A DNA stretch of 64,000 bases from the IMG/VR virus record IMGVR_UViG_3300050821_008386, positions 1 to 64,000 of that record; one strand, 5' to 3'. How positions within the stretch are numbered: the first letter of the stretch is position 1; the number at the start of each line of letters is the position of its first letter. Made by a program: the position numbers and the translations under genes. The notes beneath the pieces are model-generated. The model was not told where the DNA came from. It worked only from the letters and a program-made list of their open reading frames with translations, and did not search any database. The DNA is from a virus. Shown here one piece after another: positions 2,087-18,232 of this stretch.

Positions 2087-2284
2087 ATGGGCACTCGGGA
2101 AAAGCCCGACCACGAATTTACTTCTACCCCCGAAATGAAAACCAAACAACCGACCTTAAAACTTTGTACCGTTGCCGGATGCCCGTTACCGCATCAGGGC
2201 GGTGGGATGTGTTCCAAACATTATTATCTCGCGCACCGGGACCGGATCAACGAGCGCAAACGATTGAAGAAAGTGGCAAAATGA
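2087..2284 (+). CDS. Small C3H zinc-finger protein
   Basis: CTVAGC..GMCSKHY motif; stop overlaps next ATG. Confidence 0.6.
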   Translation: MGTREKPDHEFTSTPEMKTKQPTLKLCTVAGCPLPHQGGGMCSKHYYLAHRDRINERKRLKKVAK

Positions 2285-3015
2285 GCACCAAATGGATCGT
2301 CTTCAGCGTCGGGAGCCAGTTCGGAGGTGTCGGTAAAACCACCGCCAGCGTTCAGGTTGCGGAATATCTCCGGTCGCTCGGAATGAAGATTGCCGTGGTC
2401 GACGCTGATCAAGGCAAATGGGGGATGCCATCCAGTTTCAGTTACTTTTTTGGCGGCCAGGCGCGCCGGTTAAACATCCAGAGTCAACAAGACCTCGACG
2501 GACTCCTCGAGATGACCGCCGAAAGCGAAGCAGACGCGGTGATCTGCGATGCCCCGGCTAACGCTGGGGCGAGTTTAAGCAGTTGGTGGCATGATGTGGC
2601 TACCAAAGAGACTTTGGACGCCATTGGCCTCTCGCTCGTGGTCTTAGGATCGGTCACGCCGTTACCAGGATCGGCGCAGACGGTCTTTAAATCGATAAAT
2701 GATCTAGGCGACCGGGCCACCTATCTGATCGCCTTAAATCGAATCACGCTGCAAAGCGCCGAGGGCGATCCGAAAGAAATCTTTCCAGATTGGTTCAGTG
2801 CCGATACCTCGGGCCTCGACCTCAAAACGTTCGAGATCCCTCATGTCCAGAGTTTTGCCATGACCAAGTTTGTTGATGCCGGCAAATTGCCGTCCAAACT
2901 GAACGGCGAAGTAACCTTTCTCATCAAAAGCCGGATAGCGATCTGGACCGAACGGATCCAAGCTAATCTCGCCGCCACCGGGTTATTCGAGCGCAGTGGC
3001 AAAACTCTGAAATAA
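2281..3015 (+). CDS. ParA/MinD-family ATPase (VirC1/MobD-like)
   Basis: GGVGKTT Walker A, VVDADQG, ICDAPA; start set at ATGA overlap. Confidence 0.8.
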   Translation: MSTKWIVFSVGSQFGGVGKTTASVQVAEYLRSLGMKIAVVDADQGKWGMPSSFSYFFGGQARRLNIQSQQDLDGLLEMTAESEADAVICDAPANAGASLSSWWHDVATKETLDAIGLSLVVLGSVTPLPGSAQTVFKSINDLGDRATYLIALNRITLQSAEGDPKEIFPDWFSADTSGLDLKTFEIPHVQSFAMTKFVDAGKLPSKLNGEVTFLIKSRIAIWTERIQANLAATGLFERSGKTLK

Positions 3016-3020
3016 GCTAT

Positions 3021-3263
3021 TCACCGGGCGCGGGCGTGGTCCCGCGCTTTTCTGCTGACCTGCATCATCAAGGCCCGCGTGTTTGAACTCGGGATCTTGC
3101 ACGAGAGTCCGTCGATTTCGGCCGCGATTTCCCACAACTGGTTGCGAAGGAAGGCAACCCATTCTTCAGCGGTTTCTGGCCCTTCCTGCTCTACCGGAGG
3201 CTCAAAGCCTCCGGCGTATTCGTCCCGGTCGCTCCGGGTCTTCCACGTGTCGTAAAAGCTCAT
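3021..3263 (-). CDS. Phage hypothetical protein (YDTWKT N-terminus)
   Basis: Coupled to upstream stop. Confidence 0.6.
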   Translation of the reverse strand: MSFYDTWKTRSDRDEYAGGFEPPVEQEGPETAEEWVAFLRNQLWEIAAEIDGLSCKIPSSNTRALMMQVSRKARDHARAR

Positions 3264-4453
3264 TAGAATTGGTACCTCGCGCCGATGGTTCCCTGATTAA
3301 TCTGGAAGTCCCCATTCGCCTCGATATCCCATCCCGCATAGATCGTCCATTTAGGTGAGACGATGAAATTAGCTCCTGCGCCTGCCCAGACACCGTTTTT
3401 CCGAATCGGATCGTTGTTGTCCGAGGTGGAGAACTGGCGCTGAAACATCAATTGGCACCAAGGCTGTATCCGGCCACGGACATAAGCTACTCTTCCGCCG
3501 ATGCGGACCTGCTCGACGTTGCCACGGCCAAATCCTTCATCCACGGTCACATCATCGAATTGCCCGACCGCCACAGGCCCAAAGATGAAAGCGCCCGCGT
3601 GAAAATCGTATCCAGCACCCCCATAAAGCGTGTATTCGTTGGGACCTAGTAGCGTCCCGGCGACGCCCCACCAATGGTTTTGGTAGAACGCCGTATAGAG
3701 TCCTCCTTGCGCTACGGATAATCCGGAATGACCATTGACATAGCCTAAGCGCATGTCGGCACCCACGATCCAATGCGGGGTAACCCGGTAATCGATCCCA
3801 AACGAACCTTGATAAAGGTTGTGACCGTCACCGAAATAATCGAATCCGCCCCACATTCCCCATCGATCTAACGAATGGACTTCTGTCGGGTCAGGCGTGA
3901 TGATCTGTTTACCGTCTTTCGAATATCCGCCTTCTCCTGGCACCACCGTGGTGGTTTCAGGCGCTTCCTGCATGGCGAAATCCCGCAGATTATTGATCGC
4001 CATAGTCTGATCTTCTGGATGCAGATAATGATGATCAATCACGACCTTTGGGGTCGGAGACGGTGACGGACTCGCTACGGGTGTCGGTACAGGTGTAGGC
4101 GCCGTCCGAGGAGTCGAAACCGGAGTAGCCGCAGGTGTAGGCTTCTGCACCGGAGTGGGAGAAGCCTTTGGAGTAGGGCTAGGGGACGCCGCAGGTGTGG
4201 GTACAGGAGTTGGAATATGCGGAGTTGGAGTAGGTGTAGCACTTGGTCGAGGGGATGGTGTAGGCGTTGAATGTTGCGTCGGTGACGGACTGGGTGTCGG
4301 TCTGGGAGTTGGAGTAGGTCTAGGGGAGGGACTCGGGGTCGGTGTGCAATAAGGTGTTGGCGTCGGCGTACAATACGGTGTCGGGCACGGGCAATTGACC
4401 GGACCAGCAAAAGAGGCAGACGCAAACAGGAACAAAGGCAAAAAGAGTTTCAT
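3263..4453 (-). CDS. Outer-membrane beta-barrel protein, autotransporter-like, with Pro/Thr stalk
   Basis: Signal peptide ending ASFA, PT repeats, amphipathic strands (GIDYRVTPHWIVG), terminal YQF. Confidence 0.8.
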   Translation of the reverse strand: MKLFLPLFLFASASFAGPVNCPCPTPYCTPTPTPYCTPTPSPSPRPTPTPRPTPSPSPTQHSTPTPSPRPSATPTPTPHIPTPVPTPAASPSPTPKASPTPVQKPTPAATPVSTPRTAPTPVPTPVASPSPSPTPKVVIDHHYLHPEDQTMAINNLRDFAMQEAPETTTVVPGEGGYSKDGKQIITPDPTEVHSLDRWGMWGGFDYFGDGHNLYQGSFGIDYRVTPHWIVGADMRLGYVNGHSGLSVAQGGLYTAFYQNHWWGVAGTLLGPNEYTLYGGAGYDFHAGAFIFGPVAVGQFDDVTVDEGFGRGNVEQVRIGGRVAYVRGRIQPWCQLMFQRQFSTSDNNDPIRKNGVWAGAGANFIVSPKWTIYAGWDIEANGDFQINQGTIGARYQF

Positions 4454-4635
4454 TCGGGGCTTGTATTATATCAAATTGCAATGCTTGTCAGTAGCTTAAT
4501 GCGAACGCCAGCATCTTTTATTTCTCCTGACGTTCTCCTGACGTTCCAGTGACCGCTGGTCCGCAAGTTTCGCGGACCAGATCAGGCTAAGAATGAAGAT
4601 TCCTTCAAGGACAACGTATCCGAGAAAGAGGAGAA

Positions 4636-4857
4636 TCACTTGATCGCCCCCAGTCTTTCAAGGAGCAGGAGCAATACCTCGGACTCCCTTTTGAGTTCGT
4701 TGTATTCATCCTGAGATTGTTCGTCCGCTCTTACTTCCTCGATCAGGTCCCGGTTGTTGGAGAGGAGATTATCGATCAATGCGGAAAGCGTGGAGATTTG
4801 CTCGTCGCCCGCTTCACCTGCGTCGAATCGCAACGCACGATCTGTGGAAGCACTCAC
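4636..4857 (-). CDS. Hypothetical protein
   Basis: GTGA overlap, GGAGG upstream. Confidence 0.6.
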   Translation of the reverse strand: MSASTDRALRFDAGEAGDEQISTLSALIDNLLSNNRDLIEEVRADEQSQDEYNELKRESEVLLLLLERLGAIK

Positions 4858-5066
4858 GCGTTCACCTCCTGTCCTTCATCGAACGCTGCGGTGGTTACGA
4901 TGGCGACCGCTTTGTCTCGCGCCTCCGCTTTGCTGCCGAGGACTAGCGGATTTTCGTCAGGGCCGAACAGGGGGCTATCGCCAATCCACGGTGTCCAGTG
5001 GCACACGTCGGTGTTGGTGAAGCTAATCTTTTTGCCGAAGCAATAAATGATGTTTGGGATGCTCAT
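4854..5066 (-). CDS. Hypothetical protein
   Basis: ORF in minus-strand early operon. Confidence 0.6.
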   Translation of the reverse strand: MSIPNIIYCFGKKISFTNTDVCHWTPWIGDSPLFGPDENPLVLGSKAEARDKAVAIVTTAAFDEGQEVNA

Positions 5067-5098
5067 TATCCAGGGGAAAGGTTAAAGGTTTCGGTTTT

Positions 5099-5494: not shown

Positions 5495-5526
5495 TTTTAT
5501 TCGAGGGGTGTTTGGTTTACGCGTTC

Positions 5527-8494: not shown

Positions 8495-8588
8495 GCGACT
8501 ATTTTAAGTGAATGATGCGTGCGCTTGCATTTTCTTTCGGAAGGCATTAAGACGGGGGAAATGAGCGATTTATCTATGGATAGCCCCT

Positions 8589-8618: not shown

Positions 8619-8739
8619 AAATTAAATGCCGACTCCGGCGGTGCGTGTGGTGCATGAAATGGTTCTGTACCTTCGACAAGACTGGATCCGATCGTTTCTG
8701 CTCACAGGATTGTTCTGGAAGAGCGTGGACTTGGAGATA

Positions 8740-8946
8740 ATGAGCGAAGAACTGAGAAGTGATTGTTTCGGGTACGGCGTGGTCTGCACGGTCTGTGGGC
8801 GGACCAAAGCGCCGGTTGGCAGATCGGTCCCGGTCGAACTGTGCATGTGCGATCACGATTGCGCAGGCTACGATCAGGAACCGCTTCCTTCGCACCTCTG
8901 GCCTAGAGAATCTGAGGCGGATTTCGGATATAAGGTGCCGCGATGA
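8740..8946 (+). CDS. Small Cys-rich phage protein
   Basis: CTVCGRTK, CDHDC; GGAG upstream of ATG 8740. Confidence 0.6.
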   Translation: MSEELRSDCFGYGVVCTVCGRTKAPVGRSVPVELCMCDHDCAGYDQEPLPSHLWPRESEADFGYKVPR

Positions 8947-9353
8947 GAAAGTTCGAACAGTTGAGCGACGAGGAATTGGATATTCTTGAGATCTTTCTGT
9001 GTCTTCCATGGGAATCGACTCGAAATAGAATCAGGCGTTCACTCCTAAAGGATATAGATGACGAGTACATCTTTAGGCGCGCCGGAGAAAAGGCTTTCAA
9101 TCATCTGGCAAGTAAGCGCACCAATCCCGATACATGGACCTACGATTTTGAGGAAATGGGAGGTTACGACTGCATGACTGACGCTTTCCTTATCAAGCTT
9201 AACGGATGCACGAGGGCCAAGATGGACCTGAGATTGTACGGGCAGGAAACATCATGGGAACCACGAGAGGACGACCATAACCCTAAAAAGGAGGCAGAAG
9301 AATATGCCCGACTCATCGTGGATGCTTTAAACGCGCAGAGCAGAAAGAAATAG
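8943..9353 (+). CDS. Hypothetical protein
   Basis: ATGA overlap; abuts relaxase start. Confidence 0.65.
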   Translation: MRKFEQLSDEELDILEIFLCLPWESTRNRIRRSLLKDIDDEYIFRRAGEKAFNHLASKRTNPDTWTYDFEEMGGYDCMTDAFLIKLNGCTRAKMDLRLYGQETSWEPREDDHNPKKEAEEYARLIVDALNAQSRKK

Positions 9354-12125
9354 GTGCTCTACGGTGTCCCATTCAAAGTAGGTAAAGACTACCTGTCGTA
9401 CCTCGAACGCAACCTCGAGCATGCCGGGATCTGGCAAGGATCTGCCTGCGAGAACTTTGGCCTAACGCCTGGCACTCAGATCACGCAGGAACAGTTTCAA
9501 GCAATCCGCGAGAACAGGCATCCAGTGACCGGAAAACGCCTGACCGCACGAACCAATAAAACGCATCAAATATGGAAGATCATGAAAAACAGGTGGGTCC
9601 AGAAAACTGAATCAAACAGAGTGGTGTTTTACGATTTCACCTGTTCCGCGCCTAAAACCTTTTCTATTCTCGCGCTTCCCGGCGGCAAGAAAGAGGTACT
9701 GGAATGGCACCGCAAAGCTGTCGACAAGATGCTCGTTGAAATGGAATCGGTCACCGCTCGGATCGACCGATCTAAAGGTGCCAACGTTCTGGAAACCACC
9801 GGACGATTTGCCGCGGCTCGGTTTTCCCATGATTTAAACCGGAGCGGTGAACCGGGAATTCACGATCATCTGTTGATCGTTAACGCGACGCCGGCGGATA
9901 ACGGGAAAAACTATGCCGTGATGTCCAGTGCCTGGATGGAACGGTCACGGTATCTGACTCAGGTTTATCGGGACGCACTGGCGCACGAAGCGCGTAAAGC
10001 CGGGTACGCCGTAACTTACGACGAGCATCACGCACCCCAGATTGCCGGAATCGAAGATCTGATCAGCGTTTATAGCGGTCGCTCAGCGGATGTCGCCGCT
10101 TTGATCGAGGCCGCCGAAGAAATCACCGGAACGGTTCTGGACCCGAACGAAGTCAAGAAACTGGTCGTTTGTTCGCGCGGATTGGATCTGGCCGAATTCC
10201 GCGATAAATGGCGCGTACGCAGCACGGAATTAAAAGCCGATGCATTGAACCATCCTGACCCTAAAGAACAGCGTGCGTCGATCCTGAGCGCGTTTACCCA
10301 TCTGGTGATTGATTGTTCGGATGGTGGAACGATCGAATCGACCACTGAAGCTGTCATCCAGGCGCAACGGGAGATGTTGAGTCCAGAAGATCTGGCGCGC
10401 TTAGAGAATATCCCGAAAATGCCCCCACCGGTTGGTAACCATGACCTGATGGAATCGGTCCAGTACGCTCTGGATCATTTGTTCGAACGATTGTCGGTAG
10501 TCCACGATCACAAGATCTACGCAGAAGCGGTCAGACACGCTGCGGGCACCAACGTGAACCTCGATCTGTTGAAAAAACTGGTCGATAACCATCCGCGCCT
10601 GATCCGTAAAGGAGACGAGTTTACTACTCGCGAACATATGGACCGGGAAACTCAGATTAATCTCTGGATCCAAAACGGGTACGGGCAGGGAGTCCGGTTT
10701 CAGCCGGTCAAAGATCCGCAGTTGTCGCCTGACCAGTTGCGGGCGGTTAACGAGCTCTTGGCCTGCCCAGACCAATTCAGCGCGTTGATCGGAAGGGCCG
10801 GGACTGGGAAATCGCATGCCCTGGACGGTCTGGTGCGGGTCAACATCGATAAAGGGTACCGGGCCGCGGTCATGGCACCCTCGGTTAAAGCTACCGATGT
10901 CCTGACGCATCCTGACCGTTGCACGCTCCAGATGTTTTTGACTAATCCCCATGTCCGCAAACATCTCAGGCCAATGGATCTGGTGATTCTGGATGAAGCG
11001 GGATTCTGTTCAGTCCGGCAGATGTACGATCTGATCAAACTGGTGGTGAAAAACGGCTATCGCCTTTGTCTGGTTGGCGATCCGCGACAACACACCAGCG
11101 TGGAAGCAGGCGACAGTTTTAGAATCATTCTCAACACTACCGGGATCAAACGAGAGTGGTTGGAAAAGATCGTCCGCCAACATCCTAACGCTATGAAAGG
11201 GGCGTACCTGAAAGCGGCCAAACTATTGTCACAAGCTAAAGTCACTGAAGCGTTCAGGGTGTTTGACGCTGCCGGAGCGCTACACGAACTGCACGGTCAA
11301 GGCCGAATCAACACGCTGGCGAGCCGGTACGTCGAGGAACGTGAAGCCGGGAAAAGCGTTATCTGTGTTAATTCTTCTCACGTGGAAAATGACGCCGTCA
11401 ACGATGCGGTTCGCCATCTGTTAAAAAAAAACGGATTAATCGGCGGTGAAGAACGGGTGTATGCCGCGCACCGGACATTAGGTTGGACTCTAGCGGAGAA
11501 AAAACAGTTCGGACGCCTTAAACCGGGATACATCATCGAGATCACTCGCGGCAAAGATAAAGGTAAAGCGTTCGAGGTGCGCCAGGTGCAATGTGATCGA
11601 GCGTTTGGCGTCGACGAGCATGGGGTCCGTCGCCAGTTCGATCGAGGCAACGTCGATGCGTGGGACGTTTGCCAGCGGCGAGATCTCCCGATAGCGATTG
11701 GAGACGATATTATCGCCCATTCAGGAATGAAAGGGCGCCGGGGGGATATCATTAACGGCGAACGGTTCAGAATTGCCGGGTTCACCGATTCCGGGCCGAT
11801 GTCGACTACAGGTAAACTGATCGAGACACGCAACCTCACACACGGATACGCGTCGACGAGTCACCGGAGTCAAGGGGACACAGTGGACACCGTCCTCTTC
11901 GGACTCTCCCGAACATCACTCAAATTTGCTACCGTCAAACTTGCCTATGTGGCGGCCACCCGGGGCCGGTTCAAGATCGATATCTTTGCGGAAAACAAAC
12001 ACGAACTTTGCGGAATCCAGGATAGAAGCGGCGATCGGAAAAGCGCTCTGGAATTAGTGATCCAGCGGATCAAGAGTCGGAAAACAGCCAAACAGACTGT
12101 TCAGAACGAACGAAAAGTGGCTTAG
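9354..12125 (+). CDS. mobF: MobF/TrwC-family conjugative relaxase-helicase
   Basis: N-terminal Tyr (DYLSY), GIWQG, DFTCSAPKTFS, H..R..EPGIHDH HUH motif; SF1B helicase motifs GRAGTGKS, DEAG, GDPRQH, HGYASTSHRSQG, YVAATRGR. Confidence 0.95.
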   Translation: MLYGVPFKVGKDYLSYLERNLEHAGIWQGSACENFGLTPGTQITQEQFQAIRENRHPVTGKRLTARTNKTHQIWKIMKNRWVQKTESNRVVFYDFTCSAPKTFSILALPGGKKEVLEWHRKAVDKMLVEMESVTARIDRSKGANVLETTGRFAAARFSHDLNRSGEPGIHDHLLIVNATPADNGKNYAVMSSAWMERSRYLTQVYRDALAHEARKAGYAVTYDEHHAPQIAGIEDLISVYSGRSADVAALIEAAEEITGTVLDPNEVKKLVVCSRGLDLAEFRDKWRVRSTELKADALNHPDPKEQRASILSAFTHLVIDCSDGGTIESTTEAVIQAQREMLSPEDLARLENIPKMPPPVGNHDLMESVQYALDHLFERLSVVHDHKIYAEAVRHAAGTNVNLDLLKKLVDNHPRLIRKGDEFTTREHMDRETQINLWIQNGYGQGVRFQPVKDPQLSPDQLRAVNELLACPDQFSALIGRAGTGKSHALDGLVRVNIDKGYRAAVMAPSVKATDVLTHPDRCTLQMFLTNPHVRKHLRPMDLVILDEAGFCSVRQMYDLIKLVVKNGYRLCLVGDPRQHTSVEAGDSFRIILNTTGIKREWLEKIVRQHPNAMKGAYLKAAKLLSQAKVTEAFRVFDAAGALHELHGQGRINTLASRYVEEREAGKSVICVNSSHVENDAVNDAVRHLLKKNGLIGGEERVYAAHRTLGWTLAEKKQFGRLKPGYIIEITRGKDKGKAFEVRQVQCDRAFGVDEHGVRRQFDRGNVDAWDVCQRRDLPIAIGDDIIAHSGMKGRRGDIINGERFRIAGFTDSGPMSTTGKLIETRNLTHGYASTSHRSQGDTVDTVLFGLSRTSLKFATVKLAYVAATRGRFKIDIFAENKHELCGIQDRSGDRKSALELVIQRIKSRKTAKQTVQNERKVA

Positions 12126-12135
12126 GCTACTTTTC

Positions 12136-12384
12136 ATGAACATCTTATCACTTCTTTTACTGGGTGCCCCGACATCTGCTACTCCAAACGTCGGGCCATG
12201 GATTCATTTCTTCTGGGTTTTACTGATCCTTTGCCTGATCCTCTTTGTTCTCTGGTGGGTCTGGACCAAGATCAGCGGGATGATTCCAGAACCGATCCGA
12301 ACAATCGTCATGGTTCTCGGCGTGGTGGCACTAGCGGCCATCATCATCATCTACGTCCTGATGCCGCTGATGGGAGTTTTCTAG
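12136..12384 (+). CDS. Small membrane protein with two helices
   Basis: Two strongly hydrophobic segments. Confidence 0.7.
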   Translation: MNILSLLLLGAPTSATPNVGPWIHFFWVLLILCLILFVLWWVWTKISGMIPEPIRTIVMVLGVVALAAIIIIYVLMPLMGVF

Positions 12385-13163: not shown

Positions 13164-13672
13164 TGTGCGCTAGTGACCGTTGGCAACAGCGTTGCGCTAC
13201 CCATGCGCAACATGGCAATCGCCAGATTGACGTTTCGGAAAAGATCGATGCCGGCAGGAGTCAGTTTAGTGGTCGGGTTACCCTGTACCAGGAGATAATG
13301 GGCGATCATGTTGTTGATGTTCATTAAAGCTGTCGCGTACAAGGCCGCCCGGTTCGCGCCCTGAAGTCCATTAGCAACCAGCGGTATCGCAACACCGGAC
13401 CCGGCTAATATAACCGCACTGGCACCGTGAGTGAAGAAGGCAGATACCGTGGCAAGCCCGATTCCGGCCGCTGCCGCTCCGTAGGTCAATGCTTCGTCGA
13501 CATCCATCCGTTTGATGATCGATCGTTCAGCGTTATCGGCCAGAACCATGATCTGGACATCGTTGTAGCTGAATGTGGTGATCACCGGGCCACGCGCCAA
13601 CTGGGTCAGGCTGGGCCCGTAACTCTGGCAGGCGCATAAGAAGAGGGATAAACTGAGAACGAGTCGTTTCAT
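13160..13672 (-). CDS. Putative lipoprotein
   Basis: MKR plus hydrophobic stretch plus LCAC lipobox. Confidence 0.65.
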   Translation of the reverse strand: MKRLVLSLSLFLCACQSYGPSLTQLARGPVITTFSYNDVQIMVLADNAERSIIKRMDVDEALTYGAAAAGIGLATVSAFFTHGASAVILAGSGVAIPLVANGLQGANRAALYATALMNINNMIAHYLLVQGNPTTKLTPAGIDLFRNVNLAIAMLRMGSATLLPTVTSAQ

Positions 13673-15306
13673 TCGGACAAAATGTTATCCACCATTTGAA
13701 TGCGTTCCGCGATCCAGCGTACGACGGGTACGGCAAAAGAATTTCCGATCGCTTTGTACCTTGGGCCATCGCAAGCAGGTTTTCCGCGGTACGGAACGTT
13801 CGTCCAGTTATCTGGTAGCCCTTGCAATCTTTCGCACTCTTTGACCGTTAATCTGCGCACCCCTGATGCCACCACCCCATGATGCCGCCTAGACCCATTG
13901 TTGGCGTCCAGAGTTGCGTGAACATCACCGGTGGTCCGCATCCCTGATTGCGAGGATTGAAAGGCTATCGCCGGATAAGATTGCCCCGGTTTACCGCCTC
14001 CAGTCTTGAGTGCTCCGACAGTGTCTCCGTCGCCTCCTTCCAGCCTAAGTTCTGCTCGACTGTTCTCGGCAAACGCCACGTAACTCCGAGAACTCCCGCC
14101 GCTGGACGCACGCACGCTCGCAGTACCTTGACTCATCTCTGGCATCGCACCGCCGTCGCGGCCTCTCAGATCGAATGCTATCAGGGTACTTTCTCTTGCT
14201 CCTCCGTGCCCATTCAGGTCACCTTTGCGGATCGTCGAGGAAACCTCTGATTCGCTCCAGAATCCTTTCCCTGATTCATTGCAGACCACCGCTTGAGGGA
14301 CAGTACGGGCCTCCAGCGTGAAGGCATTCCCGTCGTCTCTGAATCCTTTCCCATCTGGTCCAGCGTCTGCGTTCTCGCATATGGCGCGTTCCTGAATGGC
14401 TATTACCGGGATAATTGGTGTTCCTCGACCTGTTCCATCTTCACTCGCGTCAAAACCGTCTGCGCGAAGTGGATGGGTGACAAATGTCTCTGTCCCCAGA
14501 TCGATCCTGACACCGTGACCTTCCAGACATGCGGCGTTCTCGGTTTCTAAGGTGCCTGAAAAACAGGCTACAAAAGCATCCTGTCCTCTTGTGTCTCCTG
14601 TCCGTTCAAATCCTCTGCCGCTGGCTCCGATGCAAGGACTGAGGTCACGGGTGACTTGCACTCCTCCTGCGCATTCGAAGTTGGAGCTAAACCCGCCGCC
14701 TGCCGTAGTGCGCGCTCCAAGGGTTCCGGTAACGTCTTCCCTCTCTTTTCGGCTCGGCGCAAGATTCCCGAGCAGGCTTTCGCGCTCAAATAATACGGCA
14801 GCAGATGGGCGCCAGTCGGTTCCAAGATGTCCGACAACGAAGACGCGACGCCGGCGCTGTGGAACTCCGCAATATTGAGCGTCAAGGATCCGCCAGGAGA
14901 CGCTATACCCGCATTCGACCAACCCTCCGATAAAGGTTCCAAACGCCCGTCCTCCGTCAATTGACAGGATGCCGGGGACGTTCTCCCACACCAACCAGCG
15001 GGGGCGCAGACGTGCAGCCAATTTAATATACTCAAGGGCCAGGTTACCAGTCGCCGCGTCCAATCCTTGCCGCAGGCCAGCGATACTGAAGGATTGGCAG
15101 GGGGTTCCTCCGATAAGAAGGTCAATTGCGTGAGTGCCAGATTGGATGTGTCGGAAGTCGCCATAAAGCTTTACGTGAGGGTAATGATGTTTTAGAACTG
15201 CTCTGGGAAACGCGTCAATCTCGGAAAAAAACTCCGGGGTCCAGCCTAGAGAATCAAAAGCAACGCTAGCCGCCTCTATGCCGCTGCACACAGATCCGTA
15301 GATCAT
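13669..15306 (-). CDS. dcm: C5 DNA cytosine methyltransferase with long variable region
   Basis: CSGIEA, GGTPCQSFS, WENVPG, QRRRRVF, ECERLQGLP, AIGNS. Confidence 0.95.
   Translation of the reverse strand: MIYGSVCSGIEAASVAFDSLGWTPEFFSEIDAFPRAVLKHHYPHVKLYGDFRHIQSGTHAIDLLIGGTPCQSFSIAGLRQGLDAATGNLALEYIKLAARLRPRWLVWENVPGILSIDGGRAFGTFIGGLVECGYSVSWRILDAQYCGVPQRRRRVFVVGHLGTDWRPSAAVLFERESLLGNLAPSRKEREDVTGTLGARTTAGGGFSSNFECAGGVQVTRDLSPCIGASGRGFERTGDTRGQDAFVACFSGTLETENAACLEGHGVRIDLGTETFVTHPLRADGFDASEDGTGRGTPIIPVIAIQERAICENADAGPDGKGFRDDGNAFTLEARTVPQAVVCNESGKGFWSESEVSSTIRKGDLNGHGGARESTLIAFDLRGRDGGAMPEMSQGTASVRASSGGSSRSYVAFAENSRAELRLEGGDGDTVGALKTGGGKPGQSYPAIAFQSSQSGMRTTGDVHATLDANNGSRRHHGVVASGVRRLTVKECERLQGLPDNWTNVPYRGKPACDGPRYKAIGNSFAVPVVRWIAERIQMVDNILSE
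14568..15164 (-). CDS. Alternative-frame internal ORF, M.EcoHK31I beta-subunit-like
   Basis: SSLSDILE..YYLSAKACSGILRRAEKRGKTLP..L..AL motif; nested in the methylase gene. Confidence 0.7.
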   Translation of the reverse strand: MATSDTSNLALTQLTFLSEEPPANPSVSLACGKDWTRRLVTWPLSILNWLHVCAPAGWCGRTSPASCQLTEDGRLEPLSEGWSNAGIASPGGSLTLNIAEFHSAGVASSLSDILEPTGAHLLPYYLSAKACSGILRRAEKRGKTLPEPLERALRQAAGLAPTSNAQEECKSPVTSVLASEPAAEDLNGQETQEDRMLL

Positions 15307-15473
15307 GCCTGCTCTTTCGGTCGCGACATCACCTTGTTCCGGTACGCCCGGTTCTCGCGCATTTTCCGGCAGCTTTTACATTCGCTGGTCCGCCCGGTCT
15401 TTGAATGTTTATCGACCGAGAACTCTTCTTCGAGATCTTTAGGCACACCGCATTTGCTGCATATTTTGGTCAT
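15303..15473 (-). CDS. 56-aa C4 zinc-finger protein (MTKICSKCG...ECKSCRK), not in ORF track
   Basis: Manual translation; stop overlaps methylase ATG. Confidence 0.65.
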   Translation of the reverse strand: MTKICSKCGVPKDLEEEFSVDKHSKTGRTSECKSCRKMRENRAYRNKVMSRPKEQA

Positions 15474-15642
15474 CTAGTTTTTTACCCACCTTTTTGGCGT
15501 ACCTCGCGTTTGCGGCTTTCCTCCGGCAATCCATGCATTCAGTCTCCCTCTTATCCACCGTGGTTGCGCTCAGATAAAAGAGGCGCAGCGGTTTGGCCGG
15601 CGGCCCGCATTCTTTGCAGACTTTGAGTCCGTCTAATCGCAT
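15439..15642 (-). CDS. C4 zinc-finger protein
   Basis: CKEC..ECMDC. Confidence 0.55.
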   Translation of the reverse strand: MRLDGLKVCKECGPPAKPLRLFYLSATTVDKRETECMDCRRKAANARYAKKVGKKLDDQNMQQMRCA

Positions 15643-15778
15643 ATCGTTGTTTTCCGTCCTCGGTCTTGCACCATTTACAGGTGCCTGTTAAACCATCTCT
15701 AGCTTCTGGATCGTGGTAGAACTCCGCTTTTCCAGGAACTGTGCTCTTATAAAGACCGCATTTTTTGCATCGTTTCAT
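15551..15778 (-). CDS. C4 zinc-finger protein
   Basis: CKKC..EFY..DGLTGTCKWC. Confidence 0.65.
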   Translation of the reverse strand: MKRCKKCGLYKSTVPGKAEFYHDPEARDGLTGTCKWCKTEDGKQRYAIRRTQSLQRMRAAGQTAAPLLSERNHGG

Positions 15779-16122
15779 TTCGGGAATGCGTAACAGGTCA
15801 CTTTCATGAACTGGAACGGATTAATGATGAGATCCCCAACCAGTTTAACGTCGACTTGCAAGACGTCTGCGCACGTCTGTGTAACCTCCTGAAGCATCCC
15901 TTCCATTGACCTGACATTACCTTTACCGCCCCGGTAAGAGTCAGCAAAGGACCGCAAACTCTTCACTTCAAGAAATAGGTTCTGGCCTTTGTAAGTGATG
16001 ATCATCTTTGATCCTTTCTGGGGATTTCCTGTCACCGGGCATAGGTCATGGATGTAAATGACGTGTTCGTGTTCAGTAAAAGCGCACCGGGTTTCGTTCG
16101 GTTGCGATTTCAGTTCCACCAT
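15775..16122 (-). CDS. QueF-like T-fold protein
   Basis: LCPVTGNP, LEVKSL, conserved Glu in SMEG; adjacent to DpdA-like gene. Confidence 0.78.
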   Translation of the reverse strand: MVELKSQPNETRCAFTEHEHVIYIHDLCPVTGNPQKGSKMIITYKGQNLFLEVKSLRSFADSYRGGKGNVRSMEGMLQEVTQTCADVLQVDVKLVGDLIINPFQFMKVTCYAFPK

Positions 16123-16859
16123 TTTGTCATGACCTCCTGAACATGGAATACAGGATGCTCGATCAGTTTCTCGACTTTAGCGGCGTACCGCAGCGCGAGT
16201 CGCGGATCATTAGAATCAGCGTCATCAAAACCCACGCGAGTCCACGCCATGGAATCAGAACTGTGCAGAAGGGCTCGTACGGTTCCTCTCTCGATGGATT
16301 CCAGTTTCAATCCAAAACCGTGCAATCGCAGGTCGGGCCGCTCCGCTTTGATGGCTAAAAGAACGTCCTCGATAGCGTCCGGGTTCGAGTTGCGTTTACA
16401 GACTGAGCCAACTCCTACCCACGCCCCTTTCTTAAGCCAGTCGCCGTACATTCGAACGTGGCAAACGTAATCCTCTGGATGGAATCCTTGAAGAACCGGG
16501 AGAATCGGAATATCGGAAGATTCCTGAAGATAAACATAACTCAGAAGGGTTTTCTCTTGATGATGTCCGATGGTAAAACCCGTTTTGTTCAAGATAAACG
16601 GCTCACACATCCAATCCTGACAGACCGCAGCTACCATCTCGCCGAATTCCGAAAACTTGTGGATATATTCAAGGTATTGATCCTGATCGAGTACGTGTTT
16701 GCCGTGTTTAGCGATCTGGCTAAAGGCACCCGAATCCATGATCCATTTATTGACCTTAAACCCGCTTCGGCGTTTCAGCAGGGCGTTCACTGAAATCATC
16801 GCACGTTCAAAAGGCCACGCGTCCGAGGGATGATGGAGTCCGCAGTAAAACTCCTTCAT
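16110..16859 (-). CDS. dpdA: DpdA/TGT-like 7-deazaguanine DNA transglycosylase
   Basis: MDSGAFS, QDWMCEP, PVLQG, VGVGSVCKR, LHGFGLK, SSDSMAW. Confidence 0.85.
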   Translation of the reverse strand: MKEFYCGLHHPSDAWPFERAMISVNALLKRRSGFKVNKWIMDSGAFSQIAKHGKHVLDQDQYLEYIHKFSEFGEMVAAVCQDWMCEPFILNKTGFTIGHHQEKTLLSYVYLQESSDIPILPVLQGFHPEDYVCHVRMYGDWLKKGAWVGVGSVCKRNSNPDAIEDVLLAIKAERPDLRLHGFGLKLESIERGTVRALLHSSDSMAWTRVGFDDADSNDPRLALRYAAKVEKLIEHPVFHVQEVMTKWWN

Positions 16860-18232
16860 ACCACAGGGAGTTTCACGCGCCGCTTGAACCTCTTATTGGT
16901 GTGGAGAATGGCGCATTTGTGGACCGGGAGATTATCAAAATGTTGGGGGAGAACGATATGATCGTCTACCTGGGATCGGTTGGATGAACCTTTACCCCCA
17001 GAAGTGCCGTAACTTGTCCGCCAGATCCTTCTTTTACCGATTTTGGCCGCGCTCTTTTCTGCGCTCTCGAATGTCTCAGAGCGAAAGATCATCCGGTTCT
17101 GGAACTTGGTCAGGATCGTTTTCGCCACCGCTTCCCCGGTCACCGGCACTAAACTCGCCTCATCCTGCATCGCCGCTATAAACGCGCACTTGGCCGCCCG
17201 TAACGTATCGAAAAAGAAGCGGTCATTAGCCACCGTGGAATGTTGGGCTTCATCAAAAAAGAGGGTCAACAGATTCTCGTCCGCAATCTCTTTCGGGGTC
17301 ATGAATTTGCGCATGTCGTACCGGCGTTTTCCGGTATAAAAGAGGACTCCTTTCATCAGGGTGTTGATGGCCGATTTAGCTTTCGGATAAGAGGTAGGAC
17401 AAAGAACACAGATGATTTTACCTTTTTCGATTAGCCTGAAATCTACCGTATCAGGCAAGTCGCTCGCAAACACATCCGCAACTTCAGGTACTGTGGTAAA
17501 TGGTGACAAGGCATTTGATAACGATGTCCGGACGCCCCCCAACTGATCCCCCGGCTGCGACATGAACTCGTTGGGCCAATGCAAAACAATGTCTGCAACC
17601 GGTCGAGGTGAACCGTTCGGAGATTTCAAACACTGTTGGACCGCCTGCTCCATGTTGAACTCTGAACAGAGAAACTCTTTCAGGCGTTTCAAGGTCACCG
17701 GCACTTTCATGTACTCAAGCATCCTGATCCCGGCCTCGATATGGGTGATGGTCTGTTCCTGGAAGAATCCGGTATGTTTACCCATGGATTGACCGATAGA
17801 AGCGATATCGGACAGGATAGAAGCCATCACGCAGGAACCCAGATTCCCGGCTTTCAACAGGTTCATCCGTTGTTCCGGGTAAGCCCTGCGACCGTCAAAC
17901 GGAACCTCGATCAGGATCACGTCATCTTTGCGTCCGTGTTTCTGGGCGATCCGTACGAGGTTCATGTGGCTGTCCCCCTGGTTATCAAGCCAAAGGCCGC
18001 CAAAGTTCTGATCGTGCGAAAACAGTTGGTCCAACAGAGCGTTCATCGCTACCGATTTGCCGCTCCCTTGTTTTCCGGTGATCAACCACGAATGGCAGAA
18101 CTGTTCACGCGTCCATTTGAGTCCTGCCAGTTCGCAGATGACCGGTTCAGGAGGTTTAGGTTTGGGCCACGGAACGAACAGAGCGGCCCCTGACGCTGCC
18201 AGTAACCCGCCTCCGATGACTTGCTCTATCAT
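16856..18232 (-). CDS. Type IV coupling protein-like ATPase (VirD4/TraD family)
   Basis: ITGKQGSGKS Walker A, FFDEAQ Walker B, AAMQD, NRMIFR. Confidence 0.85.
   Translation of the reverse strand: MIEQVIGGGLLAASGAALFVPWPKPKPPEPVICELAGLKWTREQFCHSWLITGKQGSGKSVAMNALLDQLFSHDQNFGGLWLDNQGDSHMNLVRIAQKHGRKDDVILIEVPFDGRRAYPEQRMNLLKAGNLGSCVMASILSDIASIGQSMGKHTGFFQEQTITHIEAGIRMLEYMKVPVTLKRLKEFLCSEFNMEQAVQQCLKSPNGSPRPVADIVLHWPNEFMSQPGDQLGGVRTSLSNALSPFTTVPEVADVFASDLPDTVDFRLIEKGKIICVLCPTSYPKAKSAINTLMKGVLFYTGKRRYDMRKFMTPKEIADENLLTLFFDEAQHSTVANDRFFFDTLRAAKCAFIAAMQDEASLVPVTGEAVAKTILTKFQNRMIFRSETFESAEKSAAKIGKRRIWRTSYGTSGGKGSSNRSQVDDHIVLPQHFDNLPVHKCAILHTNKRFKRRVKLPVV

What the first reader, a model, noticed from the sequence alone, without database searches (positions are those of the whole stretch)
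2281..18232. A virion-encoding phage carrying dispersed conjugative mobilisation genes (MobF relaxase, coupling ATPase, ParA/VirC1-like)
Seen: a full relaxase-helicase (9354-12125, +), a VirD4/TraD-like ATPase (16856-18232, -) and a ParA-like ATPase (2281-3015, +), each separately stitched into phage operons by abutting or overlapping start-stop codons, not as one inserted block. No mating-pair (VirB4 etc.) genes in the window. Known: relaxase plus coupling protein is the minimal set for mobilisation by a helper T4SS. Inference: a mobilisable phage or phage-plasmid with two transfer routes, or domesticated enzymes used for rolling-circle replication, integration or fertility interference.
Basis: partly seen in the sequence, partly recalled or inferred. 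Interest (0 to 1): 0.85.

Follow-up and report, generated by a model that had tools for sequence, protein, structure and literature searches.

The report
Soil phage with own conjugation machinery
An uncultured 132-kb soil phage carries an intact-looking relaxase and coupling ATPase scattered among its early genes, plus a type IV secretion operon outside this window, so it may spread both as virus particles and by bacterial mating.

Summary
9354-12125(+) is a MobF/TrwC relaxase-helicase with its catalytic motifs intact. 16856-18232(-) is a type IV coupling protein by Pfam, by a profile search against PDB and by a structure model. 2281-3015(+) is a degenerate ParA-like ATPase. Each overlaps or abuts its neighbours' start or stop codons.

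"No mating-pair genes" holds only for the window. The same 131,760-bp virus record has a VirB-type operon at 105-116.6 kb: a VirB4 supported by profile searches, a VirB10-like protein supported by a lead only, and pilin/VirB3/6/8/9-like membrane topologies.

The record is also a real tailed phage. It has an HK97-fold capsid protein, a terminase, a portal candidate and tail fibres, and is kin to ~74-kb IMG/VR phages, of which 0 of 5 tested carry these genes.

In cellular islands the three genes form one compact module.

A 16-bp promoter motif and uniform composition tie the modules together.

Best reading: a candidate self-transmissible, conjugative phage. Function is untested. A 2025 review says none is known. 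Unchecked notes of this scan report similar phages on other DNA.

The parts
2087..2284 (+). 65-aa ORF whose stop overlaps the ParA-like start (ATGA)
   Evidence: no Pfam family at E<=0.05
2281..3015 (+). ParA/MinD-superfamily P-loop ATPase (TraL/VirC1-like position in the MOB trio). The signature lysine of the deviant Walker A is lost: SQFGGVGKT here against NGKGGVGKS in relatives.
8515..8530 (.). Palindromic variant (3 mismatches) of the 16-bp promoter-associated motif, in the divergent intergenic region upstream of the relaxase operon
8626..8946 (+). 106-aa Cys-rich ORF, probable first gene of the relaxase operon; its stop overlaps the next start
   Evidence: no family
8943..9353 (+). 136-aa ORF abutting the relaxase start. 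Candidate relaxosome accessory protein (inference only).
   Evidence: (no family)
9354..12125 (+). MobF (TrwC/TraI-type) relaxase fused to an SF1B helicase. Y13 and Y16, D94, H159/H170/H172, and helicase Walker A/B are all conserved.
12136..12384 (+). 82-aa protein with two predicted transmembrane segments, directly downstream of the relaxase
13669..15306 (-). C5 cytosine DNA methyltransferase, same strand block as the coupling protein
   Evidence: DNA_methylase E 2.7e-52
15775..16122 (-). QueF-like small protein (weak), downstream of DpdA
   Evidence: QueF E 0.013, below cut-off
16110..16859 (-). DpdA (7-deazaguanine DNA-modification transglycosylase); its start codon overlaps the coupling protein's stop
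   Evidence: (E 1.1e-34)
16856..18232 (-). Type IV coupling protein (VirD4/TrwB/TraD class), compact, with one N-terminal hydrophobic helix
18229..18441 (-). 70-aa ORF whose stop overlaps the coupling-protein start
19869..19884 (.). Exact copy of the 16-bp motif ATGCTATCGCAAGCAT, upstream of the minus-strand gene block that contains the coupling protein
20195..20210 (.). 1-mismatch copy of the motif, directly beside TTGACC on the minus strand. Candidate promoter of the block 20178 to 12381 (inference).
20213..21553 (-). DnaB-type replicative helicase
   Evidence: DnaB_C E 1.3e-50
23742..24146 (+). Cro/CI-type HTH_3 protein flanked by motif copies at 23295, 23378 and 23693. Candidate regulator of the motif (inference).
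29907..31037 (-). RecT recombinase; an exact motif copy lies at 31048-31063, just upstream of its start
40915..51582 (-). 3555-aa polyvalent protein with an ART-PolyVal domain
   Evidence: E 4.5e-19
59936..61462 (-). Tail fibre protein
   Evidence: phrog_4492 E 3.2e-25

Best explanation
The window is the first half of one uncultured soil tailed-phage genome: 131,760 bp, CheckV completeness 91 %, no integrase found. This genome has taken up a whole conjugation gene set, kept it over a long time and rewired it.

In the window:
- A MobF relaxase-helicase would nick a still unmapped oriT and pilot the single strand.
- A compact type IV coupling protein would hand the relaxase-DNA complex to the secretion channel.
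- A degenerate ParA/TraL-like ATPase may position the relaxosome.

Outside the window, at genome 105-116.6 kb, lies the channel itself: a VirB-type operon with pilin-like, VirB3-like, VirB4, VirB6-like and VirB8/9/10-like genes.

The coupling protein is translationally coupled to DpdA and lies in one strand block with a C5 methylase. DNA leaving by either route would therefore be modified against restriction.

Shown here: gene identities, intact motifs, one contig, co-occurrence in relatives, a shared promoter motif, and uniform composition.

Inferred: that the set works, that it moves the phage genome itself from cell to cell during a non-lytic episomal phase, and that this gives the phage a second transmission route.
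For: (1) Gene identities.
- Relaxase: Pfam TrwC 5.2e-53 and AAA_30 4e-36. It aligns to the solved TrwC relaxase domain at E 1.5e-22, across the His triad.
- In a 12-sequence alignment Y13, D94, H159, H170, H172 and the helicase Walker A/B and later motifs are invariant.
- Coupling protein: two Pfam T4CP domains over cut-off. A profile of 19 homologues hits only T4CPs in PDB: DotL 5.6e-7, TrwB 7.5e-5.
- Its AF2 model (pLDDT 70.3) has T4CPs as best Foldseek hits: DotL 8.3e-8, TrwB 1.5e-7, Cag-beta 1.4e-6. VirB4 and HerA come only at >=3.6e-4.

(2) Own T4SS.
- The 886-aa ORF at 105720-108380 scores TraC-F 5.3e-18, CD1110 VirB4-like 1.9e-10 and VirB4_CagE 2e-9.
- 34 of 40 aligned family members match PF19044 and 2 match TraC_F_IV.
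- The family profile hits solved VirB4 (4ag5, 8e-15) and TrwK (3.3e-7).
- The flanking ORFs have the expected order and membrane topology.
- The 400-aa ORF's nearest Atlas clusters are TrbI/VirB10: 27 of 30 hits, score 0.96, TM 0.57.

(3) Real phage.
- Terminase: phrog_2 1.1e-12, with 121 homologues.
- 45 IMG/VR loci share the terminase. Of these, 38 also share the 830-aa portal candidate and 20 the 413-aa protein.
- That 413-aa protein models as an HK97-fold capsid protein: VIA-align Z 10.6, rmsd 5.8 over 211 residues, to the N4 capsid, and the other top rows are capsids or encapsulins.
- Tail fibre and tail collar PHROGs hits.

(4) Not a one-off.
- The best relatives of relaxase (72 %), coupling protein (74 %) and terminase (83 %) each lie on a contig of exactly 102,662 bp.
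- Coupling protein (47 %) and terminase (50 %) each lie on a 187,258-bp contig.
- VirB4 (52 %) and terminase (54 %) each have a longest contig of 189,251 bp.

(5) The trio is a conserved module. In 28 metagenome loci found with the coupling protein, the only G000 ORFs with matches were ParA-like (11 loci), relaxase (8), the coupling protein, a reverse-strand ORF overlapping the coupling-protein gene (2 loci), and VirB4 (1). Seven loci hold all three within about 8 kb.

(6) Integration into the phage.
- The motif ATGCTATCGCAAGCAT occurs 19 times at <=3 mismatches, against about 0.9 expected.
- Copies lie before the coupling-protein block, RecT, the VirB6-like gene and late/early junctions.
- Tetranucleotide correlation among six genome segments is 0.82-0.93, against 0.46-0.77 to other contigs.

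(7) Conjugation genes are a gain on a phage backbone. 0 of 5 ~74-kb kin phages (4 rated 100 % complete) have the relaxase, coupling protein or VirB4.

(8) No integrase: PF00589 and PF00239 found 0 matches, with positive controls ringing. This fits an episomal state.
Against: - No function was tested and no oriT was found.
- No laid contig bridges the T4SS-terminase junction. Logan contigs of 4 soil runs are short and 2-5x deep.
- Apart from VirB4, no T4SS part reaches any HMM threshold. The TrbI Pfam model finds nothing at E<=0.1, so VirB10 rests on a language-model and structure lead. VirB9 is a weak lead: CagX on 13 % of the best cluster, and only 4 of the ten best hits agree.
- There is no VirB11: PF00437 hits only the coupling protein's P-loop. 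A ClpB-D2-like AAA+ closes the operon instead.
- The relaxase and its 72 % relative lack 7 residues between the two tyrosines.
- The coupling protein has one marginal N-terminal helix rather than the usual two.
- The ParA-like protein has lost the signature lysine.
- No CI-type S24 repressor, partition partner or plasmid Rep was found. A lysogenic or carrier phase, which conjugation would need, is therefore unproven.
- The record is 'linear', without terminal repeats.
Confidence: 0.5

Rival explanations
1. Domesticated parts. The phage keeps the relaxase, coupling protein and T4SS for a purpose other than moving its own genome. Possible purposes: the relaxase-helicase starts rolling-circle replication; the T4SS delivers proteins (for example the polyvalent protein) or DNA into neighbours or the medium; or the set interferes with resident conjugative elements.
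For: - The genes are split over phage operons and co-regulated with replication and recombination genes such as RecT and DnaB.
- The ParA-like ATPase is degenerate.
- The coupling protein is compact, with one weak anchor helix.
- There is no VirB11, and an unusual ClpB-like ATPase is present.
- A 3555-aa polyvalent protein is present.
- A preprint reads relaxases in filamentous 'phage-plasmids' as replication enzymes (10.1101/2025.11.07.687105, passages seen).
Against: - The full trio plus VirB4 is kept in the pattern that defines conjugative transfer.
- Catalytic and ATPase motifs are all intact.
- Replication alone needs neither a coupling protein nor an envelope-spanning channel.
- The phage has its own DnaB and an initiator-like HTH protein.
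Confidence: 0.22
2. Mobilisable only. The relaxase and coupling protein work, but the phage's T4SS-like operon is incomplete or serves adhesion or a pilus function, so transfer depends on a helper element's channel.
For: - Only VirB4 is firmly identified.
- VirB11 is absent.
- Other channel parts are unrecognised by HMMs.
- 13 of 19 other IMG/VR records with a MobF relaxase also have a coupling protein, yet only 2 of 19 have this VirB4 type. Relaxase plus coupling protein without a channel is therefore the commoner state.
Against: - The operon has the gene order, sizes and topologies of a complete VirB2-VirB10 set and a VirB10-like protein.
- A relative of 52 % identity keeps VirB4 together with the terminase.
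- The VirB6-like gene's promoter shares the motif with the coupling-protein block.
Confidence: 0.16
3. Artefact or recent cointegrate: a chimeric assembly, or a recent fusion of a conjugative plasmid with a phage (like E. coli p1002-1), or a conjugative plasmid carrying a defective prophage.
For: - It is a metagenome assembly and the record is linear without terminal repeats.
- No bridging contig was seen.
- Fusion-type 'conjugative phage-plasmids' exist in the literature (10.1101/2025.03.14.643293, passages seen).
- IMG/VR holds conjugative elements filed as viruses: G014 and G017 have relaxase, coupling protein and VirB4 but no phrog_2 terminase.
Against: - The modules are interleaved, not two blocks: MOB genes at 2-18 kb among DnaB, DpdA and methylase; virion genes at 41-104 kb; T4SS at 105-116.6 kb; terminase and portal at 118-125 kb.
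- The motif is shared across modules.
- Composition is uniform.
- Three other contigs of different sizes repeat the combination.
- The nearest non-phage homologues are only 25-37 % identical, so the acquisition is old.
- In 4 soil runs both the T4SS and terminase parts are covered at similar low depth.
Confidence: 0.1

Closest known systems
IncW plasmid R388 transfer system (TrwC relaxase-helicase, TrwB coupling protein, TrwK/VirB4 and the VirB-type channel)
   Same: - Same relaxase family and two-domain build; the relaxase aligns to solved TrwC at 1.5e-22.
- The coupling-protein fold is nearest TrwB and DotL.
- The VirB4 profile hits TrwK.
- VirB2-to-VirB10-like gene order.
   Different: - Carried by a tailed phage, with genes dispersed over more than 100 kb of map instead of two plasmid regions.
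- Identity is about 11-16 % at structure level.
- No VirB11; a ClpB-like AAA+ is present instead.
- The two catalytic tyrosines are 3 residues apart, after a 7-residue deletion.
- The coupling protein has one N-terminal helix.
Compact relaxase / ParA-like / coupling-protein modules on metagenomic cellular islands
   Same: Homologous trio: relaxase 28-30 %, coupling protein 34-37 %, ParA-like 21-23 % identity. All three lie within about 8 kb in 7 of 28 loci.
   Different: - There the trio is one block, next to cellular and toxin-antitoxin genes: GalK, GalT, a symporter, HipA, Fic.
- There the ParA-like protein keeps KGGVGKS.
- In the phage the three genes sit 6-7 kb apart in three operons, and the ParA-like protein has lost the lysine.
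Phage-plasmids such as P1 and N15
   Same: A tailed phage with plasmid-type genes and no integrase. It would need an episomal phase.
   Different: [quoted passage not shown] Here no plasmid Rep or working partition pair was identified, and no lysogeny was shown.
E. coli p1002-1, called a 'conjugative phage-plasmid' (SegMantX preprint 10.1101/2025.03.14.643293; passages seen)
   Same: One replicon with both phage and conjugation genes.
   Different: p1002-1 is described as a fusion of two recognisable replicons from closely related E. coli. Here the genes are interleaved, compositionally uniform, co-regulated, deeply diverged from any plasmid copy, and repeated in diverged relatives.
~74-kb uncultured phage family in IMG/VR (loci L036-L080)
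   Same: Shared terminase (31-46 %), portal candidate (about 42 %), capsid protein (up to 66 %) and about 10 further proteins.
   Different: 0 of 5 whole records tested carry the relaxase, coupling protein or VirB4. In L040 the capsid gene lies about 4.3 kb downstream of the terminase. In this genome the two are about 28 kb apart on opposite strands, with the T4SS operon between them.
Agrobacterium VirD2/VirC1/VirD4 and gonococcal-island ParA-dependent DNA secretion (recalled, not searched)
   Same: A ParA-like ATPase works beside a relaxase and a coupling protein.
   Different: The VirC1 model scores only E 0.037. The relaxase families differ. The comparison rests on recall.

Membership tests
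MobF (TrwC/TraI) relaxase | Pfam TrwC relaxase domain over the gathering score | tested here: met
   180.9 bits against cut-off 25, residues 15-255
MobF (TrwC/TraI) relaxase | Histidine triad (H...HxH) and activating Asp of the HUH fold | tested here: met
   H159, H170, H172 and D94 are invariant in 12 of 12 aligned sequences. They align to the TrwC triad in 1omh.
MobF (TrwC/TraI) relaxase | Two N-terminal catalytic tyrosines | tested here: met
   Y13 is invariant and Y16 nearly invariant. The spacing is atypical: 7 residues are missing between them in this protein and its 72 % relative.
MobF (TrwC/TraI) relaxase | C-terminal SF1B helicase with intact ATPase motifs | tested here: met
   AAA_30 4e-36. 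Walker A G480-K486, D547/E548 and later motifs are invariant.
MobF (TrwC/TraI) relaxase | Site-specific nicking at a cognate oriT | not testable with these tools
   No oriT found. Inverted repeats near the operon are unremarkable.
Type IV coupling protein (VirD4/TrwB/TraD) | T4CP Pfam domains over their cut-offs | tested here: met
   TrwB_AAD_bind 46.6 bits (cut-off 20.5) and TraG-D_C 36.8 bits (cut-off 22). The six-frame search agrees.
Type IV coupling protein (VirD4/TrwB/TraD) | Walker A and Walker B conserved | tested here: met
   G53, G56, G58, K59 and D327/Q330 are invariant in 19 of 19 sequences
Type IV coupling protein (VirD4/TrwB/TraD) | Fold nearest to solved T4CPs rather than VirB4, FtsK or HerA | tested here: met
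   Foldseek: DotL 8.3e-8, TrwB 1.5e-7, Cag-beta 1.4e-6; VirB4 and HerA >=3.6e-4. Model pLDDT 70.3; the C-terminal 120 residues are poorly modelled.
Type IV coupling protein (VirD4/TrwB/TraD) | N-terminal membrane anchor (usually two helices) | tested here: inconclusive
   One helix, residues 2-19 in the model. The hydropathy scan found no segment at threshold 1.6.
ParA/MinD-type ATPase (VirC1/TraL-like accessory) | Deviant Walker A with signature lysine (KGGxxK[ST]) | tested here: not met
   SQFGGVGKT in this protein; NGKGGVGKS in 13 of 13 relatives next to coupling proteins
ParA/MinD-type ATPase (VirC1/TraL-like accessory) | Family model over cut-off along the whole protein | tested here: not met
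   Pfam matches cover residues 8-45 only. NCBIfam ParA_partition 32 bits (cut-off 180), TraL 29 bits (cut-off 360), VirC1 E 0.037.
ParA/MinD-type ATPase (VirC1/TraL-like accessory) | Linked to relaxase and coupling protein in relatives | tested here: met
   The ParA-like ORF lies upstream of the coupling protein in 13 loci; the trio is complete in 7 of 28 loci
Self-transmissible conjugative element (relaxase + T4CP + VirB4 + channel genes) | VirB4-family ATPase on the same replicon | tested here: met
   TraC-F 5.3e-18 and CD1110 1.9e-10, all below the curated equivalog cut-offs. Family: 34 of 40 members match PF19044. Profile against PDB: VirB4 8e-15, TrwK 3.3e-7. PF03135 gave no hit on the protein.
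Self-transmissible conjugative element (relaxase + T4CP + VirB4 + channel genes) | MPF-specific channel genes (pilin, VirB3, VirB6, VirB8-10) | tested here: inconclusive
   Order, size and topology fit. VirB10 is supported by an Atlas lead only, and the TrbI HMM finds nothing. VirB9 is a weak lead. No HMM hit for the rest. CONJscan itself was not available.
Self-transmissible conjugative element (relaxase + T4CP + VirB4 + channel genes) | VirB11-type traffic ATPase (present in many, not all, MPF types) | tested here: not met
   PF00437 hits only the coupling protein's P-loop at 5e-4. A ClpB-D2-like AAA+ ends the operon.
Self-transmissible conjugative element (relaxase + T4CP + VirB4 + channel genes) | Actual transfer by mating | not testable with these tools
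   Needs an experiment
Tailed phage (Caudoviricetes) | HK97-fold major capsid protein | tested here: met
   413-aa protein at genome 88212-89453. The AF2 model is weak (pLDDT 54.9). Foldseek found no hit at <=1e-3, but the top rows are phage capsids. VIA-align gives Z 10.6 to the N4 capsid, with capsids and encapsulins throughout the top rows.
Tailed phage (Caudoviricetes) | Large terminase | tested here: met
   phrog_2 1.1e-12. No Pfam family. Homologues found in 45 IMG/VR loci.
Tailed phage (Caudoviricetes) | Portal and tail genes | tested here: inconclusive
   The 830-aa portal candidate rests only on conservation and position: it matched in 38 of the 46 loci searched, and no family was found. 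Tail fibre and collar PHROGs hits at 3.2e-25 and 3.6e-28.
Phage-plasmid | Plasmid replication and partition functions, no integrase, episomal prophage | tested here: inconclusive
   No tyrosine or serine recombinase. The ParA-like protein is degenerate. No Rep, ParB or S24 repressor was recognised. The episomal state cannot be tested here.

The most novel reading that the evidence does not exclude
A whole lineage of large soil phages (about 100-190 kb) are true dual-route elements: tailed viruses that are also self-transmissible conjugative replicons. Their relaxase, coupling protein and T4SS have been split up and placed under the phage's own early-gene switch. An infected or carrier cell would then pass modified phage DNA directly to neighbours by mating, as well as releasing virions.
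Probability: 0.35. Interest if true: 0.92.

Novelty: new variant of a known kind. Interest (0 to 1): 0.8.

Why it matters
Phages and conjugative elements are treated as the two separate engines of horizontal gene transfer, with different host ranges, costs and defences. [quoted passage not shown]

A phage lineage that keeps a full mating apparatus under its own regulation would blur that division. It would widen the possible host range of a virus beyond its receptor, and it would matter for how virus/plasmid classifiers and defence-system studies read such contigs.

It also offers a compact, testable set for asking how a relaxosome is recruited when its genes are unlinked: relaxase operon, coupling protein and one T4SS operon.

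Tried and rejected
**Searches that found nothing**
- GenBank phages: tblastn of the relaxase against 50,697 records gave 1 partial hit (17 % coverage). Megablast of 40915-62400 gave none.
- IMG/VR scans with the relaxase alone and with the coupling-protein alignment found no relative.
- PHROGs gave nothing for the coupling protein, and only helicase families for the relaxase.
- Pfam, PHROGs and NCBIfam gave nothing for most T4SS and virion ORFs.
- phmmer of VirB4 alone against PDB: 0 hits. The family profile was needed.
- TIGR00929 six-frame control: all 14 control genomes ring at E<=0.01. That weak hit alone is not evidence.
- PF03135 on 19 relaxase-bearing IMG/VR records: 0 of 19. G000's own VirB4 does not match that model either, so this says little.
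- PF12846 hits there fall on coupling-protein genes.
- Other terminase families than phrog_2 were not tried on those records.
- GTDB genome scan with the terminase alignment: 1 distant locus (31 %) in a MAG titled uncultured Paraperlucidibaca sp.. No host was assigned.

**Weak or uninformative tests**
- Promoter/terminator consensus scan of 1500-21000: 7 promoter-like and 19 terminator-like sites, both at or below the shuffle means. No information.
- Inverted repeats upstream of the relaxase: nothing oriT-like stood out.
- The tRNA-like stretch at 8567-8613 was not called by ARAGORN, and its Rfam E-value is 0.64.
- Reads: only short Logan contigs. No listed piece bridges the T4SS-terminase gap and no joints were seen. 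Loose ends at about 12.05 and 13.2-13.6 kb of L003 come with contigs that are only partly alike.
- Seven runs, all labelled soil metagenome, hold some words. Only X1 holds more than half and may be the source sample.
- Atlas taxa (Verrucomicrobiota, Acidobacteriota) are leads only.

**Literature**
- Searches.
- Passages read: PMC12282955, 10.1101/2025.03.14.643293, 10.64898/2025.12.20.690322 and 10.1101/2025.11.07.687105.
- Supplementary Table 3 of 10.64898/2025.12.20.690322 lists 'potential phage-plasmid genomes'. It could not be seen and may hold similar elements.
- 'Conjugative prophage' Phi1207.3 appeared only in a search listing and was not read.

**Not used**

Full report
**What the window is.** The window is bases 1-64000 of a single 131,760-bp contig. 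The genome tool labels it an IMG/VR virus record, linear, with CheckV completeness 91 %. No terminal repeat was found.

**The three genes.**
- ORF 9354-12125(+), 923 aa, has a TrwC relaxase domain (E 5.2e-53, 180.9 bits against cut-off 25) and an AAA_30 helicase domain (4e-36).
- It aligns to the solved TrwC relaxase domain (1omh, E 1.5e-22) across the histidine triad.
- I aligned it with 11 homologues of 27-72 % identity. Y13, D94, H159, H170, H172 and the helicase Walker A, Walker B and later motifs are invariant, and Y16 is nearly so.
- This protein and its closest relative lack 7 residues between the two tyrosines and carry a 17-residue insertion after residue 78.
- ORF 16856-18232(-), 458 aa, has TrwB_AAD_bind and TraG-D_C over their cut-offs.
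- Its 19-member family keeps Walker A and B. The family profile finds only coupling proteins in PDB: DotL 5.6e-7, TrwB 7.5e-5.
- An AF2 model (pLDDT 70.3, pTM 0.69) is closest to DotL, TrwB and Cag-beta (8.3e-8 to 1.4e-6). VirB4 and HerA come only at 3.6e-4 or worse. It has one N-terminal helix (residues 2-19).
- ORF 2281-3015(+), 244 aa, is a ParA/MinD-superfamily P-loop protein, matched only over its first ~45 residues by Pfam. NCBIfam ParA_partition (7e-8) and IncP TraL (6e-7) match weakly, and VirC1 scores 0.037.
- Its Walker A reads SQFGGVGKT, while 13 of 13 relatives read NGKGGVGKS. It has therefore lost the lysine that defines the deviant Walker A.

**Stitching.**
- ATGA overlaps occur at 2281, at 18232 and at 16859 (coupling-protein stop over DpdA start).
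- A TAG stop lies directly before the relaxase GTG.
- The coupling protein thus sits in one minus-strand block with DpdA (1.1e-34), a weak QueF-like ORF (0.013), a C5 methylase (2.7e-52) and small ORFs, downstream of DnaB.

**The missing channel is in the other half of the genome.** Notes from the scan's other windows pointed to a T4SS at about 105-116 kb, and I tested this.
- The 886-aa ORF at 105720-108380 scores TraC-F 5.3e-18, CD1110 VirB4-like 1.9e-10 and VirB4_CagE 2e-9. All are far below the curated equivalog cut-offs. Pfam P-loop_TraG lies just under its threshold.
- An exhaustive HMMER search found 436 relatives.
- Of 40 that I aligned, 34 match PF19044 and 2 match TraC_F_IV.
- The profile hits solved VirB4 (4ag5, 8e-15) and TrwK (3.3e-7).
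- Around it lie, in order:
  - a 107-aa two-TM pilin-like ORF
  - a 124-aa two-TM VirB3-like ORF overlapping VirB4
  - a lipoprotein
  - a 401-aa secreted protein
  - a 319-aa polytopic VirB6-like protein
  - a 212-aa VirB8-sized protein
  - a 325-aa secreted protein
  - a 400-aa N-anchored protein
  - a second lipoprotein
- The 400-aa protein's nearest Atlas clusters are TrbI/VirB10 (27 of 30 hits, score 0.96, TM 0.57). The TrbI HMM itself finds nothing.
- The 325-aa protein gives only weak CagX, DUF4138 and TraK leads.
- There is no VirB11. A ClpB-D2-like AAA+ (AAA_2, 7.6e-33) closes the operon.

**Is it a phage?**
- The 617-aa ORF at 117909-119762 matches phrog_2 large terminase (1.1e-12) and has 121 homologues; 3 of these carry intein domains.
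- A scan of IMG/VR with a terminase alignment found 45 loci at 31-46 % identity, mostly on contigs of 66-78 kb.
- tblastn of all G000 ORFs against these loci and the one GTDB locus (46 loci) shows a shared core. It comprises the terminase, an 830-aa portal candidate (38 loci, about 42 %), a 413-aa protein (20 loci, up to 66 %), a 216-aa protein (36 loci) and about ten more.
- None of relaxase, coupling protein, ParA-like or VirB4 is shared, apart from one helicase-domain hit in L047.
- With an 11-sequence alignment the 413-aa protein gave a weak AF2 model (pLDDT 54.9). Foldseek found no hit at <=1e-3, but the list is phage capsids (N4 2e-3). The VIA-align second look gives Z 10.6 (rmsd 5.8, 211 aligned) to the N4 capsid, with HK97-fold capsids and encapsulins throughout the top rows.
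- Tail fibre and collar domains score 3.2e-25 and 3.6e-28 in PHROGs.
- The 3555-aa protein holds an ART-PolyVal domain.
- The record therefore encodes a virion.

**Are the two gene sets really together?**
- (a) Relatives.
  - The best hits of relaxase (72 %), coupling protein (74 %) and terminase (83 %) each lie on a contig of 102,662 bp.
  - Coupling protein (47 %) and terminase (50 %) each lie on one of 187,258 bp.
  - VirB4 (52 %) and terminase (54 %) each have a longest contig of 189,251 bp.
  - This is inference from identical lengths.
- (b) Five ~74-kb kin phages (4 rated 100 % complete, one with terminal repeats) have none of the three conjugation proteins: 0 of 5 each. The set marks the large-genome branch.
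- (c) Interleaving: MOB genes at 2-18 kb, virion genes at 41-104 kb, T4SS at 105-116.6 kb, terminase and portal at 118-125 kb.
- (d) A 16-bp motif, first noted by another window's reader, is real.
  - The loose pattern has 8 exact matches against 0.44 expected.
  - The consensus ATGCTATCGCAAGCAT has 4, 4, 3 and 8 sites at 0, 1, 2 and 3 mismatches, against 0, 0, 0.1 and 0.77 expected.
  - Copies lie beside TTGAC-type -35 boxes before the coupling-protein block (19869, 20195), before RecT (31048), before the VirB6-like gene (110756), at 128-130.6 kb, and around a Cro/CI-type HTH_3 gene (23295, 23378, 23693).
  - A 3-mismatch palindromic variant lies in the divergent region before the relaxase operon (8515).
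- (e) Tetranucleotide usage correlates at 0.82-0.93 among six segments, including MOB, T4SS and virion parts. Against other contigs the values are 0.46-0.77.
- (f) Logan contigs of four soil-metagenome runs cover 30, 24, 20 and 17 of 30 bins of 104-124 kb at similar low depth, with perfect short pieces in both the T4SS and terminase parts. None bridges the junction.

**Where the trio comes from.**
- A metagenome scan with the coupling-protein alignment gave 28 loci.
- The only G000 ORFs with matches there are the ParA-like protein (11 loci), the relaxase (8), the coupling protein, a reverse-strand ORF overlapping the coupling-protein gene (2 loci) and, in L024, VirB4 (27 % over 880 residues).
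- In 7 loci all three lie within about 8 kb, arranged as relaxase(-), ParA-like(+), coupling protein(+).
- In L009 the flanks are cellular or island genes: Fic, HipA, GalT, GalK, a symporter and a GNAT.
- The trio is thus an established transfer module of cellular mobile elements. The phage copies are 21-37 % identical to these and 44-74 % identical to the copies of the phage branch, which argues for an old capture.

**How unusual is it?**
- A scan of IMG/VR with the relaxase alignment found 19 other records with MobF-type relaxases at 23-34 % identity.
- Of these, 13 have a coupling protein, 8 a phrog_2 terminase and 2 this VirB4 type.
- The two with VirB4 lack the terminase hit. Among the 20 records, only G000 has all four.
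- Several records combine relaxase, coupling protein and terminase, for example the 15-kb fragment behind L089. Mobilisable prophage-like records are therefore not rare in that collection.
- Literature:
  - One preprint calls an E. coli fusion plasmid a 'conjugative phage-plasmid'.
  - Another reports T4SS, traC and traD domains as 'sporadic' in putative phage-plasmids.
  - A third mentions such hybrids, with details in a supplement I could not see.
- This scan's own unchecked notes describe tailed phages with built-in conjugation sets on at least three other genomes, of monoderm or actinobacterial type. The present case is a diderm VirB/MobF version with dispersed genes.

**Mechanism and caveats.**
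- The most likely reading (0.5) is a phage that can also move by mating. The relaxase nicks an unmapped oriT. The coupling protein, made together with DpdA, docks the complex on the phage's own VirB-type channel. The DNA carries 7-deazaguanine and 5-methylcytosine marks.
- No integrase was found, which fits an episomal phase.
- Against this reading:
  - no lysogeny functions beyond one HTH_3 protein
  - a degenerate ParA-like protein
  - a single weak anchor on the coupling protein
  - no VirB11
  - channel parts unrecognised by HMMs
  - no oriT
  - no functional data
- Rivals are domestication for replication or delivery (0.22), helper-dependent mobilisation (0.16) and chimera or recent cointegrate (0.10).

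Noticed in passing
window 8567-8613: A tRNA-like stretch (T-arm plus acceptor 3' half) lies in the divergent intergenic region upstream of the relaxase operon. ARAGORN calls no tRNA, and the best Rfam match (a tRNA-like family) has E 0.64. It could be an att-site remnant or a tRNA-like element. No integrase is present in the record.
   Followed up: partly
window 19869, 20195, 23295, 23378, 23693, 31048, 34279, 36663; genome 110756, 128252, 130590: The 16-bp motif ATGCTATCGCAAGCAT is strongly over-represented: 19 sites at <=3 mismatches against about 0.9 expected. It sits next to TTGAC-type -35 boxes. Three copies flank the only HTH_3 (Cro/CI-type) gene, 23742-24146, which is its candidate regulator.
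   Followed up: partly
window 12381-16859 (-): A DNA-modification block is coupled to the coupling protein: DpdA, a weak QueF-like ORF (E 0.013) and a C5 methylase. A 260-aa ORF (12381-13163) begins with an SGGG-type PP-loop-like motif but matches no Pfam family.
   Followed up: partly
window 3263-4453 (-): A 396-aa secreted protein with a long Pro/Thr-rich linker and a C-terminal beta-barrel-like end (weak Autotransporter and OMP_b-brl hits; the last residue is F). It points to a diderm host. A 3-mismatch motif copy lies at 4499, before its start.
   Followed up: no
window 40915-51582 (-): A 3555-aa polyvalent protein with an ART-PolyVal domain (E 4.5e-19). Such proteins are described in both phages and conjugative elements (recalled).
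   Followed up: no
L003:11721-12599 (genome 115721-116599): A single-domain ClpB-D2-like AAA+ ATPase (AAA_2, 7.6e-33) closes the T4SS operon, where a VirB11 might be expected. No VirB11 is found anywhere in the record.
   Followed up: partly
L003:6310-6744 (genome 110310-110744): A 144-aa ORF inside the T4SS operon has weak DUF1064 and DUF790 hits (E 0.038 and 0.016). It may be a phage-type nuclease embedded among channel genes.
   Followed up: no
L089 (IMG/VR record of 14,992 bp) and L095, L097: Other IMG/VR records place a coupling protein and a MobF relaxase side by side at the contig start. L089 and L095 also have a phrog_2 terminase hit about 10-18 kb away; L097 has none. This would be a different, possibly mobilisable, phage-like lineage.
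   Followed up: no
proteins P0166, P0174, P0181 (terminase relatives): Three terminase homologues of about 950 aa carry Hint/LAGLIDADG intein domains.
   Followed up: no
window 27800-31037 (-): A RecT recombinase (9.1e-33) sits next to a DUF2800/PD-(D/E)XK nuclease (8.8e-13), a phage-type recombination pair. A weak endonuclease-I-like ORF lies at 22347-22877.
   Followed up: no
genome 88212-89453 versus 117909-125370: In the kin phage locus L040 the capsid gene lies about 4.3 kb downstream of the terminase, on the same strand. Here the capsid gene is about 28 kb away on the opposite strand, with the T4SS operon in between.
   Followed up: partly
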